Shown one piece after another: positions 28,411 through 29,359 of a DNA stretch of 51,739 bases (the stretch's first letter is position 1; each line of letters opens with the position of its first letter). The notes below the pieces were generated by a model. That model saw only the letters and a list, made by a program, of their open reading frames with translations. It did no database searches and was not told the DNA's origin. The stretch is from sequence record NC_049822.1. The stretch is one strand, 5' to 3'. Source of the stretch: Escherichia phage vB_EcoS_G29-2. The position numbers were made by a program, and so were the translations under genes.

Positions 28411-28716
28411 ATGGCTGAATATGGTGTTTCAACGTGGGATGCTAACGGGAAGTATAACAACTACGGAATCAAGCCAGTTTCCGTTGTTGGTGTCATTAGC
28501 CTTGCGGCTGGTCAGACAAGCGGATCGTGGAGCTTTAGCATTCCAAGTGGTTTTAAGGTTGGGTATGTTGTTTCGCTTGATGAGGGTGCTAGAGGGGTTG
28601 GAAGGGAAATAGTAGCATCTGGAAACACAATAAGAATCAGTCCTACATCTTCAGTTGGTGCAAATAGATATTCTTCTTCAAAGTGTGAGTTAGTTGTTTT
28701 TCTTGAGAGGGCTTAA
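28411..28716 (+). CDS. hypothetical tail-associated protein (MAEYG paralog 1)
   Basis: RBS GGAGG; N-terminus MAEYGVSTWDANGK shared with next gene. Confidence 0.55.
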   Translation: MAEYGVSTWDANGKYNNYGIKPVSVVGVISLAAGQTSGSWSFSIPSGFKVGYVVSLDEGARGVGREIVASGNTIRISPTSSVGANRYSSSKCELVVFLERA

Positions 28717-28717
28717 A

Positions 28718-29359
28718 ATGGCTGAATATGGAGCAATGTTATCTTTATCAAATGGGAATCCATTTATCACACCAAAATCAACGCCATTTTGCTTATATGG
28801 CAAGTACACTTATTCATCTTCTGGCACTTCTGCCTATCATAGCGCAAGCGCAAATATACCATTGAATCAATCTTATCCATGTATGGCATTTATAAAAACA
28901 ACAAACACACAGCAGCCAACTGCATTAATAGCTTACAGGAATGGTGGCAACATTTATGTAAACGGAGGCAATCCATACGGGCAATCATTTACAATGACTG
29001 TTTATATATTTGCCATATTCCCTCAAACTCTACCCAAATATGGTATGGCTATATGGGATGCAAGCGGCAAGTTGGTTTTAACTAATGAAAGCAGGGTGCT
29101 AACAGATCTTGTTACAATTGGTACTCCTGGTTCTTCAGGTGGAACGAATATAGATCAAACGTTATCTGGTTCTTATGCCGTTTGCCCTTCAAGGCTTGGT
29201 GCGGTTGTAGGCATGGGTGCTTCTGACATATATACATCATGCAGGTATGATGGTTCAAGCACAAGGATAGGTGCAGCAAGGACAACGCCAGGAACAGGAT
29301 CTATAACAAATAACGGAAATTCAATAATTGCAATAAGGACTGATATTTACGACCAATGA
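28718..29359 (+). CDS. hypothetical tail-associated protein (MAEYG paralog 2)
   Basis: RBS GAGGG; N-terminus MAEYG; internal repeat KYGMAIWDASGK. Confidence 0.55.
   Translation: MAEYGAMLSLSNGNPFITPKSTPFCLYGKYTYSSSGTSAYHSASANIPLNQSYPCMAFIKTTNTQQPTALIAYRNGGNIYVNGGNPYGQSFTMTVYIFAIFPQTLPKYGMAIWDASGKLVLTNESRVLTDLVTIGTPGSSGGTNIDQTLSGSYAVCPSRLGAVVGMGASDIYTSCRYDGSSTRIGAARTTPGTGSITNNGNSIIAIRTDIYDQ

What the first reader, a model, noticed from the sequence alone, without database searches (positions are those of the whole stretch)
28411..29359. Tandem paralogous MAEYG proteins downstream of the J-like tail tip gene
Two adjacent genes begin with the same MAEYG...WDANGK N-terminus, and the second contains an internal repeat of that segment (KYGMAIWDASGK). 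Their position right after J and before the Cor-like gene, with Gly/Ser/Thr-rich composition, suggests tail-tip accessory or receptor-binding proteins docked by a shared N-terminal adaptor.
Basis: seen in the sequence. Interest (0 to 1): 0.55.

Follow-up and report, generated by a model that had tools for sequence, protein, structure and literature searches.

The report
Two-gene FhuA receptor-binding tail-tip cassette
The two small genes after the tail-tip gene J of this T1-like coliphage are most likely the phage's receptor-binding device for the FhuA outer-membrane protein; the locus was already catalogued, but its fold link to a solved phage receptor binder and its repeated docking motif clarify how it may work.

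Summary
The window is Escherichia phage herni or a near-identical Hanrivervirus (T1-like, Drexlerviridae). Gene A (28411-28716, 101 aa) and gene B (28718-29359, 213 aa) are real. They lie between J and a convergent cor gene. Both start with MAEYG, but only A continues ...WDANGK. B carries that segment internally (KYGMAIWDASGK, residues 107-118; 0 of 20000 shuffles match it).

The J-A-B order holds in 88 of 91 related loci, usually with overlapping stop and start codons. These include the FhuA-dependent phages T1, phi80 and JLBYU37, plus N15 and HK75. [quoted passage not shown]

Best reading: B, with A, forms the FhuA binder docked on the J tip. The locus is already in the literature, so novelty is modest.

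The parts
28230..28367 (+). Last ~45 codons of J plus the stop (…DKNGTFENYGSTPGEGAMKMTNETISVRDANGVLRVQIGRLTGTW*). This is the cassette-linked J tail and the proposed docking platform.
   Evidence: The tail is conserved in phages that carry an A+B cassette: T1, phi80, N15, JLBYU37, Sushi, Erwinia phage 49 and Bas06. It is replaced by a different ~45-aa tail in phages with the single-chain LptD-type binder (Rtp, pSf-1), although the J sequence just upstream is alike.
28375..28392 (.). GC-rich hairpin (GCGGGGCATTTGCCCCGC) in the 43-nt gap between J and A.
   Evidence: The scan flags it as terminator-like on the minus strand only. Equivalent hairpins sit at the same place in lytic relatives (T1, JLBYU37, PaulFeyerabend, Sushi, AAS23, BabyEgg); the hairpins of T1 and JLBYU37 are followed by plus-strand T-runs. 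Temperate relatives have no hairpin, and J and A overlap or abut.
28411..28716 (+). Gene A, 101 aa (herni gp75, phrog_557): a small one-module beta-sandwich protein, proposed adaptor or third module of the receptor binder.
   Evidence: phrog_557 E 3.8e-30; no Pfam or NCBIfam hit. AF2 model pLDDT 89, with a sandwich at residues 24-101 and a low-confidence N-terminus. Residues 1-30 are the most conserved part. No membrane segment. A remote homolog is present in the BtuB-type cassette (hhalign probability 91%, E 1e-6).
28417..28452 (+). Motif copy 1: A residues 3-14, EYGVSTWDANGK.
   Evidence: G5 is invariant, and T8, W9, D10 and G13 are at least 90% conserved across 94 family members.
28718..29359 (+). 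Gene B, 213 aa (herni gp76, phrog_425): a two-module beta-sandwich protein, the probable FhuA-binding protein.
28724..28765 (+). Motif copy 2: B residues 3-16, EYGAMLSLSNGNPF.
   Evidence: G5, A6, N12, G13, N14, P15 and F16 are at least 90% conserved across 95 family members. pLDDT is only 71 for residues 1-20.
28799..29017 (+). Core of B module 1 (residues 28-100), the most variable stretch and the candidate specificity-determining surface.
   Evidence: Lowest conservation in the family (block means 0.48-0.65). This region is only 39% identical in the Bas05/BabyEgg variant, against 62% for module 2.
29036..29071 (+). Motif copy 3: B residues 107-118, KYGMAIWDASGK, at the start of module 2.
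   Evidence: 0 of 20000 shuffles reach the observed score. hhalign E 2.8e-5. It aligns with the third motif of Rtp44 (…PGPGINIFNSNNQ…) in the B-versus-DUF6453 profile alignment.
29361..29390 (.). Terminator-like hairpin with a T-run between the convergent B and cor genes.
29389..29616 (-). cor, the FhuA-directed superinfection-exclusion lipoprotein and cassette partner.
   Evidence: phrog_1119 E 3e-28. NCBIfam lamb_exclu_cor E 1.9e-19. Its orientation varies among the 91 loci (same strand in 79, opposite in 9, not detected in 3) while J-A-B stays fixed.

Best explanation
A and B are virion proteins of the distal tail tip. Together they form the dedicated, non-covalently attached receptor-binding unit that recognises the outer-membrane transporter FhuA.

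B is a two-module beta-sandwich protein of the same fold class as the solved LptD-binding protein of phage Oekolampad. Its variable first module probably carries the receptor contacts. A is a third, single module made from a separate but translationally coupled gene. A(1)+B(2) would therefore be a split version of the three-module single-chain binder (DUF6453 family) of LptD-targeting relatives.

Each module opens with a conserved hairpin-like motif (aromatic-G-hydrophobic-x-hydrophobic-x-D/N-x-x-G). The three motif segments are proposed to form the tail-proximal face that plugs onto the cassette-specific last ~45 residues of the trimeric J protein. The adjacent Cor lipoprotein blocks FhuA in infected cells.

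Shown here: gene structure, synteny, translational coupling, absence of membrane features, the fold match, and recurrence of the motif across cassette types. Inferred: virion location, A-B complex formation, docking on J through the motifs, and direct FhuA contact.

For: 2. Receptor association. The same cassette, at 95.8% nucleotide identity, is in JLBYU41, which is experimentally FhuA-dependent (PMC10373560). A and B co-occur in about 345 phage records, including the FhuA-dependent phages T1, phi80, JLBYU37, JLBYU60 and Teewinot (PMC10373560) and also N15 and HK/mEp lambdoid phages. PMC13164509 reports that the cassette is restricted to FhuA users.

3. Tail-operon context. J-A-B order holds in 88 of 91 loci. 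The A stop and B start overlap in 72 of 89, and J and A overlap or abut in 75 of 88. cor changes strand or is absent.

4. Not membrane proteins. There is no hydrophobic segment (maximum 19-residue Kyte-Doolittle mean 1.05 for A and 0.93 for B) and no signal peptide.

5. Motif as docking element.
- It is the most conserved part of A (residues 1-30), and B is conserved at residues 10-30 and 90-160.
- The N-termini have low AF2 confidence in isolation.
- The motif recurs at the start of the small protein, the start of the large protein and around residue 100 of the large protein in the BtuB (Bas06) and YncD (Bas10) cassettes.
- It occurs at about residues 1, 114 and 208 of Rtp44 and about 1, 118 and 215 of the Oekolampad binder.
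- The Oekolampad paper states that residues 1-25, 113-142 and 206-234 lack density and that the tail-proximal part is poorly ordered.

6. The J tail changes with cassette architecture. The FhuA-type and BtuB-type (Bas06) tails are nearly identical, whereas the LptD-type tail differs over the last ~45 residues.

7. The BtuB cassette encodes remote homologs of both proteins: A family against bas06_0025 gives probability 91%, E 1e-6; B against bas06_0024 aligns over the full length at E 1.8e-4.
Against: - No experiment on the FhuA-type proteins was found: no reliable virion proteomics (the Sfin-1 data are of poor quality), no binding assay and no mutants.
- The T1 cryo-EM study could not resolve the distal tip (PMC11945409).
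- Sequence similarity between modules is not significant beyond the motif (E 0.03-0.3).
- The B-versus-DUF6453 profile match is weak (E 0.004), and Pfam DUF6453 does not hit B.
- No A-to-B or A-to-DUF6453 fusions were found among 78 family representatives.
- I could not inspect model coordinates or run a multimer prediction, so where the motif hairpins pack is unknown. AF2 places the internal motif of B confidently (pLDDT 86-91), which also fits an ordinary intradomain role.
- One published study treats J itself as the receptor binder (PMC10373560), and another suggests a superinfection-exclusion role (PMC13164509).
Confidence: 0.6

Rival explanations
1. B is the virion receptor binder, but A is not a structural part of it. 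Instead A is an assembly chaperone or attachment factor for B or for the J tip, and may or may not stay in the particle.
For: A is small and more conserved than B (about 65-70% against 55-60% identity between T1-like and lambdoid phages). The preprint 10.64898/2026.04.02.716166 calls such neighbours 'accessory proteins'. No A-B fusion was found. Module-level homology of A to the DUF6453 first module is weak.
Against: The small+large pair totals about 295-320 residues in the FhuA, BtuB and YncD cassettes, close to the 311-321 residues of the single-chain LptD binder, with the motif at matching positions. A precedes B just as module 1 precedes modules 2-3. A's second-best structural hit is the Oekolampad binder. 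Tight translational coupling suggests equimolar production.
Confidence: 0.2
2. The shared motif is simply the first beta-hairpin of this sandwich fold, a structural signature of descent. It has no special docking role, and attachment to J uses other surfaces.
For: AF2 places the internal copy in B with good confidence and as a hairpin (strands 111-113 and 119-122, pLDDT 86-91). Similar D-x-x-G hairpins occur in the J tail itself (GWRLDKNGTF, ISVRDANGVLRV), so the pattern may be a generic turn.
Against: The motif regions are the most conserved parts of otherwise fast-evolving proteins. They are the only sequence element shared across four receptor types. In the solved relative, exactly these segments are the disordered, tail-proximal ones. 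The N-terminal copies have low confidence in monomer models.
Confidence: 0.3
3. J's own C-terminus binds FhuA, as lambda J binds LamB. A and B would then be accessory, for example stabilising the tip or binding LPS.
For: PMC10373560 treats the J homolog (herni YP_009901705) as the receptor binder. TolC-, LamB- and NupG-specific phages use extended J C-termini. The J tail co-varies with the cassette.
Against: The BtuB-type phage Bas06 has a J tail nearly identical to herni's but a very different A/B pair, so the tail cannot by itself set FhuA versus BtuB specificity. B shares its fold with a protein shown by cryo-EM to bind the receptor directly (PMC12685063).
Confidence: 0.08
4. A and B are membrane-associated host-conversion proteins that help Cor exclude superinfecting phages. 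This is the reading implied by the database names and by PMC13164509.
For: They are adjacent to cor. [quoted passage not shown] PMC13164509 found no structural hits and proposed a link to superinfection exclusion.
Against: No signal peptide, lipobox or transmembrane segment; both are predicted to be soluble all-beta proteins. They are coupled to J, not to cor. They are present without any cor gene in Klebsiella phage Sushi and Pantoea phage AAS23. There is a strong fold match to a validated receptor binder that entered the PDB only in December 2025.
Confidence: 0.04

Closest known systems
'Bona fide RBP locus' downstream of gpJ in small siphoviruses, FhuA allele (Maffei et al. 2021, PMC8594841; bioRxiv 10.64898/2026.04.02.716166; three-gene cassette noted by Wietzorrek et al. 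2006 as cited in PMC13164509)
   Same: Same position, the same two genes plus cor, and the same association with FhuA dependence. The herni cassette is 95.8% identical in nucleotide sequence to that of the FhuA-dependent phage JLBYU41.
   Different: Nothing essential differs; this window is an instance of that locus. The literature rests on correlation and AlphaFold3 models. It calls the FhuA, BtuB, LptD and YncD proteins 'unrelated families' and leaves the small protein as an undefined accessory.
Oekolampad (Bas18) receptor-binding protein and Rtp44, Pfam DUF6453 (PF20051); PDB 9RPT, 9RPW, 9RQI (PMC12685063)
   Different: It is a single chain of 311-321 aa, against two chains of 101+213 aa here. 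It is encoded on the strand opposite to J and co-transcribed with its exclusion gene. It targets LptD, not FhuA. It goes with a different J tail. Pfam DUF6453 does not detect A or B, and sequence identity is about 14%.
BtuB-type (Bas06 KarlJaspers) and YncD-type (Bas10 IsaakIselin) cassettes of Tempevirinae
   Same: A small (91-101 aa) plus large (204-217 aa) protein pair, with the motif at both N-termini and around residue 100 of the large protein. The Bas06 proteins are remote homologs of A and B. The Bas06 J tail is nearly identical to herni's.
   Different: Opposite strand, co-transcribed with a non-Cor exclusion protein, and a different receptor. For Bas10, sequence similarity is limited to the motif.
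Phage T5 pb5 (FhuA-binding protein) with Llp
   Same: The functional logic is the same: a dedicated monomeric binder sits at the tip of a trimeric central fibre, targets FhuA, and is paired with a periplasmic lipoprotein that blocks FhuA. The tail-proximal part is disordered when off the phage (PMC12685063).
   Different: pb5 is a single ~640-aa protein encoded elsewhere in the genome. No sequence or fold match to it was seen here.

Membership tests
RBP locus downstream of gpJ in small siphoviruses, FhuA allele | Genes lie immediately downstream of a lambda-J-like tail-tip gene | tested here: met
   J (Pfam FNIII-A_GpJ, Phage-tail_3, Phage_Tail_Tip) ends at 28367 and A starts at 28411. J-A-B order holds in 88 of 91 loci.
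RBP locus downstream of gpJ in small siphoviruses, FhuA allele | Adjacent cognate superinfection-exclusion lipoprotein (Cor for FhuA) | tested here: met
   cor lies at 29389-29616 on the minus strand; phrog_1119 E 3e-28, NCBIfam lamb_exclu_cor E 1.9e-19.
RBP locus downstream of gpJ in small siphoviruses, FhuA allele | The allele matches those of phages with experimentally determined FhuA dependence | tested here: met
   95.8% nucleotide identity to JLBYU41. Homologs are present in the FhuA-dependent phages T1, phi80, JLBYU37, JLBYU60 and Teewinot, and also in N15 (PMC10373560). The receptor of herni itself has not been tested.
RBP locus downstream of gpJ in small siphoviruses, FhuA allele | The protein is in the virion and binds the receptor | not testable with these tools
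   No proteomic or binding data were found for the FhuA-type proteins.
Pfam DUF6453 (Rtp44 / Oekolampad binder) | Match to the PF20051 profile above the gathering score | tested here: not met
   No Pfam hit for A or B at E up to 0.1, whereas Rtp44 scores E 1.4e-113. A and B are therefore not filed as DUF6453 members.
Pfam DUF6453 (Rtp44 / Oekolampad binder) | Shared three-dimensional fold with the solved structure 9RPT chain C | tested here: met
Pfam DUF6453 (Rtp44 / Oekolampad binder) | Three tandem units in one chain, each opening with the G-hydrophobic-x-hydrophobic...D/N-x-x-G segment | tested here: inconclusive
   The motif positions match if A+B are read as 1+2 units. However, unit-to-unit profile comparisons are not significant, and no coordinates were available for superposition.
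   The motif is significant (0 of 20000 shuffles; hhalign E 2.8e-5). The full-domain alignment of A against the B N-terminal half covers 81 columns at only E 0.0024. The secondary-structure patterns are alike.
Membrane or outer-membrane protein (database annotation; exclusion accessory) | Signal peptide, lipobox, transmembrane helix or beta-barrel | tested here: not met
   Maximum 19-residue hydropathy is 1.05 (A) and 0.93 (B). The N-termini are acidic (MAEYG) with no hydrophobic core. The models are soluble beta-sandwiches.

The most novel reading that the evidence does not exclude
The terminal receptor binders of T1-like, Dhillonvirus and lambdoid siphophages may all belong to one superfamily built from three beta-sandwich modules. 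Each module carries an N-terminal docking hairpin. A single pseudo-trimeric unit would then cap the threefold J tip, one hairpin per J chain. The three modules are fused in the LptD type and split 1+2 in the FhuA, BtuB and YncD types. This would resolve the mismatch between a trimeric fibre and a monomeric receptor. It would also provide a universal plug that lets whole cassettes be exchanged between phages. If so, A is an integral third of the FhuA binder, and the long-unidentified T1/phi80 adhesin is the A-B heterodimer.
Probability: 0.35. Interest if true: 0.65.

Novelty: new variant of a known kind. Interest (0 to 1): 0.42.

Why it matters
T1 and phi80 have been known to use FhuA (TonA) for decades, yet the protein that touches FhuA has never been shown. 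The only T1 tail-tip map did not resolve the distal end.

This analysis ties the two small genes by fold to a receptor binder that has been solved in complex with its receptor. It removes the misleading 'membrane protein' labels. It also argues against a recent suggestion that the genes serve superinfection exclusion.

If the shared motif is the docking element, cassettes from phages with matching J tails should be directly swappable. For example, the FhuA type of herni and the BtuB type of Bas06 have nearly identical J tails. That is useful for engineering host range. The existence of the locus and its link to FhuA are not new.

Tried and rejected
- Pfam and NCBIfam scans of A and B found nothing.
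- Sequence searches of the PDB with both family profiles gave only chance hits.
- A Foldseek search of the A model against BFVD gave only weak matches to ~95-aa uncharacterised phage proteins (best E 6e-4). It did not recover B-like proteins, so it did not test paralogy.
- An exhaustive profile search with the A family found 78 representatives. Nearly all are stand-alone ~100-aa proteins, plus repetitive giant proteins that look like compositional matches. There were no informative fusions except P0213.
- Profile-profile comparisons between individual modules (A, the B halves, the Rtp44 thirds) were not significant apart from the motif. The three-module homology therefore remains an inference.
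- Virion proteomics was sought in the literature. Only the Sfin-1 dataset turned up, and it lists non-structural proteins and odd best matches, so I did not use it.
- Wietzorrek et al. 2006 could not be read.
- A guessed accession for Oekolampad was wrong. Its sequence was obtained instead from the PDB alignment.
- Gene orientation relative to cor was dropped as an argument against an exclusion role. In the LptD, BtuB and YncD cassettes the binder genes are co-transcribed with the exclusion gene.
- The promoter scan was no better than shuffled sequence.

Full report
**Identity of the window.** The 1253 bases spanning the finding are 100% identical to Escherichia phage herni (Drexlerviridae, Tempevirinae, Hanrivervirus). 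They are 93-99% identical to about 25 other T1-like coliphages, including JLBYU41. The annotated herni record lists the genes in this order: J-like tail protein gp74, gp75 'outer membrane protein', gp76 'membrane associated protein', then a convergent Cor gene and the recombination module. The window is 768 bases longer than the herni record, and a 3.6-kb stretch is 99.9% identical. It is therefore herni or a near-identical relative.

**Check of the observation.** Gene A is 28411-28716 (101 aa). Gene B is 28718-29359 (213 aa), and its ATG lies one base after A's TAA.
- Both proteins start MAEYG, and 14 of the first 15 nucleotides are identical.
- The internal copy in B (KYGMAIWDASGK, residues 107-118) is real and far beyond chance. 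Its ungapped score against A 3-14 is 48, reached by none of 20000 shuffles. The B N-terminal match scores 22, reached by 589 of 20000.
- BLASTP and profile comparison agree (E 6e-4; E 2.8e-5).
- G+S+T content is about 33% in both proteins.

**Families and distribution.** Neither protein hits Pfam or NCBIfam. They belong to PHROG 557 and PHROG 425.
- Each family has more than 100 clusters at 90% identity, from Enterobacteriaceae phages and prophages.
- In GenBank phage records, A is found in 343 and B in 348, with the same taxon breakdown. These include T1, phi80, N15 (gp22, gp23), HK/mEp lambdoid phages, the Dhillonvirus phages JLBYU37, JLBYU60 and Teewinot, and Klebsiella Webervirus.
- I examined 91 loci: 11 phage records and 80 IMG/VR contigs. 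The order J-A-B holds in 88.
- The A stop and B start overlap in 72 of 89 loci. J and A overlap or abut in 75 of 88. The lytic lineages instead have a 36-45-nt spacer (13 loci); where I read its sequence (7 phage records) it holds a GC-rich hairpin.
- cor is on the same strand in 79 loci, on the opposite strand in 9, and was not detected in 3. These three include Klebsiella phage Sushi and Pantoea phage AAS23, whose records annotate no cor gene.

**Not membrane proteins.** There is no signal peptide or lipobox. The maximum 19-residue hydropathy is 1.05 (A) and 0.93 (B). The database names therefore have no basis in the sequence.

**Structure.**
- AlphaFold2 with family alignments gives confident models. 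A has pLDDT 89, with a six-strand beta-sandwich from residue 24 to 101. B has pLDDT 92 and pTM 0.89, with two sandwiches. In both models the first ~20 residues have the lowest confidence.
- By sequence the link is faint. B hits phrog_1265 (the Rtp44 family) at E 2.8e-5. The profile comparison of the B family with the Rtp44 family gives E 0.004. No PDB hit was found by sequence.
- Rtp44 is Pfam DUF6453 and is 33% identical to the Oekolampad protein (PMC12685063).
- That entry was released in December 2025. This may explain why a 2026 paper on phage KanT1 found no structural matches for these two proteins and guessed at a superinfection-exclusion role (PMC13164509).

**The motif.** Across the families, the N-terminus of A is M-[AST]-(x)-[WYF]-G-[IV]-x-T-W-D-A-x-G, and that of B is M-[AS]-(x)-[YF]-G-A-[ML]-I-..-N-G-N-P-F. 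These N-terminal regions, together with the inter-module region of B (residues 90-160), are the best-conserved parts. B residues 31-90 and 160-200 are the most variable. The same short pattern appears in the other cassette types as follows:

| Cassette and phage | Motif copies |
|---|---|
| LptD: Rtp44 | MAQGIYIDLNDG (residue 1), GQGIYVADSTDF (114), GPGINIFNSNNQ (208) |
| LptD: Oekolampad | about residues 1, 118 and 215 |
| BtuB: Bas06 KarlJaspers | 91-aa protein MAYGYAIYDEQG; 204-aa protein MYGMQITKPDGS, plus SHGIAFYNSAGQ near residue 100 |
| YncD: Bas10 IsaakIselin | 101-aa protein MPGLQAWDASGN; 217-aa protein MSGFEVRNNAGV, plus SGYLDVFDASGN near residue 103 |

- The Bas06 proteins are detectable remote homologs of both A and B. 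The A family against bas06_0025 gives probability 91%, E 1e-6. B against bas06_0024 aligns over the full length at E 1.8e-4.
- Three receptor types therefore use a small+large pair of about 295-320 residues in total. The fourth uses one chain of 311-321 residues. In all of them the motif opens each ~100-residue unit.
- The Oekolampad paper reports that residues 1-25, 113-142 and 206-234 lack cryo-EM density. It also says that the tail-proximal part of the protein is very poorly ordered. Mapped onto the chain sequence, those three gaps are exactly the motif-bearing segments.

**The J tail.** J of herni and J of Rtp are alike up to ...GWR(L/I)DK(N/D)G and then differ completely over the last ~45 residues. 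The herni-type tail (…FENYGS…ISVRDANG.LRVQIGR.TG.W) is shared by the T1, phi80, N15, Dhillonvirus, Webervirus and Erwinia phages that carry A+B. It is also shared, nearly identically, by the BtuB-type Bas06. This fits the preprint's remark that the J tip carries receptor-linked features, possibly for compatibility with the binder. It also argues that the tail alone does not decide between FhuA and BtuB.

**Interpretation.**
- Shown: the genes, their coupling to J, their soluble beta-sandwich nature, B's fold match to a validated receptor binder, the link with FhuA-dependent phages, and the recurrent motif.
- Inferred: B, with A, sits on the J tip as the FhuA binder. A is the split-off first module of a three-module unit. 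The three motif segments form the face that docks on the three J tails. B's variable first module carries specificity.
- One comparison supports the last inference. The Bas05/BabyEgg variant keeps module 2 at 62% identity and Cor at 89%, but its module-1 core is only 39% identical and 16 residues shorter.

**Caveats.**
- Module-to-module homology is not significant by sequence.
- I could not inspect model coordinates or run a complex prediction.
- No experiment on the FhuA-type proteins was found.
- The T1 tail-tip map did not resolve J beyond residue 820.
- A chaperone role for A, or a purely structural role for the motif, remains open.

**Comparison with the literature.** The three-gene cassette was noted in FhuA phages in 2006 (as cited in PMC13164509). 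It was named the 'bona fide RBP locus' in 2021 (PMC8594841). It was supported by AlphaFold3 models in 2026, where the four receptor-specific families were called unrelated and the small neighbours 'accessory'. One paper takes J itself as the binder (PMC10373560), and another proposes an exclusion role (PMC13164509). The feature is thus already catalogued. What this analysis adds is the fold link to the solved LptD binder, the homology of the FhuA and BtuB pairs, the split-versus-fused three-unit layout, and the coincidence of the motif with the tail-proximal disordered segments.

**Verdict.** Novelty is modest: a two-chain, FhuA-directed variant of a known kind of tail-tip receptor binder. Interest is moderate, because it yields a concrete, testable candidate for the long-sought T1/phi80 adhesin and a possible universal docking motif.

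Noticed in passing
window 28368-28410 (hairpin 28375-28392): A GC-rich hairpin fills the J-A spacer. Hairpins sit at the same place in lytic relatives (T1, JLBYU37, PaulFeyerabend, Sushi, AAS23, BabyEgg); those of T1 and JLBYU37 are followed by plus-strand T-runs. Temperate relatives have J and A overlapping or abutting with no hairpin. It may attenuate A/B expression relative to J, or stabilise the mRNA.
   Followed up: partly
L006 (Escherichia phage BabyEgg PP925846) about 2188-2499: The record annotates a 66-aa ORF in the wrong frame. An intact A homolog (MAEYGISTWDANGKYNNYGIKP…FLETE) is present in another frame. Reports that some Tempevirinae 'lack the outer membrane protein' may reflect such annotation gaps.
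   Followed up: partly
L097 (Bas05 PeterMerian) 2646-3808; L006 (BabyEgg): This is a variant cassette: an A-like protein, a 197-aa B whose module-1 core is only 39% identical and 16 residues shorter, and a Cor that is 89% identical to herni's. PMC10373560 notes that the Warwickviruses isolated in that laboratory (PeterMerian's genus) do not use FhuA as sole receptor, and PMC13164509 mentions a Cor-carrying Tempevirinae phage that uses BtuB. A near-identical Cor paired with a different receptor would be puzzling.
   Followed up: partly
protein P0213 (139 aa, from a bacterial contig): The J C-terminus (…LRVQVGRLTG) is fused in frame through 'CSD' to the start of an A homolog (MAYGIQTWDASGKPNNYGIKP…), which then breaks off. 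It could be a natural read-through fusion in a decaying prophage or an assembly error. If genuine, it hints that A acts at the J C-terminus.
   Followed up: no
records MG0656xx named 'Campylobacter phage A14b, A13a, A136, A16a…': Records labelled as Campylobacter jejuni phages are 92-97% identical to E. coli T1-like Hanriverviruses across this region. They are probably coliphage contaminants or carry a wrong host label.
   Followed up: no
about 76-79-kb Escherichia phages (NJ01, SR02, NC-B, TH34, vB_EcoP_PAS59): Distant relatives of the DUF6453 binder Rtp44 (22-25% identity over 85-90% of its length) occur in larger phages, at least one named as a podovirus. This receptor-binder module therefore appears not to be confined to J-type siphophage tips.
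   Followed up: no
window 31262-31540 (herni gp79): A 92-aa acidic ORF between the exonuclease VIII and Erf genes is annotated 'tail length tape measure protein' in the RefSeq record. Given its size and position in the recombination module, this looks like an annotation error.
   Followed up: no
L096 (Shigella phage 2019SD1) 1254-2620: This Hanrivervirus has an LptD-type J tail, but no full-length binder gene is annotated downstream. Only a 29% fragment of Rtp44 matches (H210). The cassette may be degraded or the assembly faulty.
   Followed up: no
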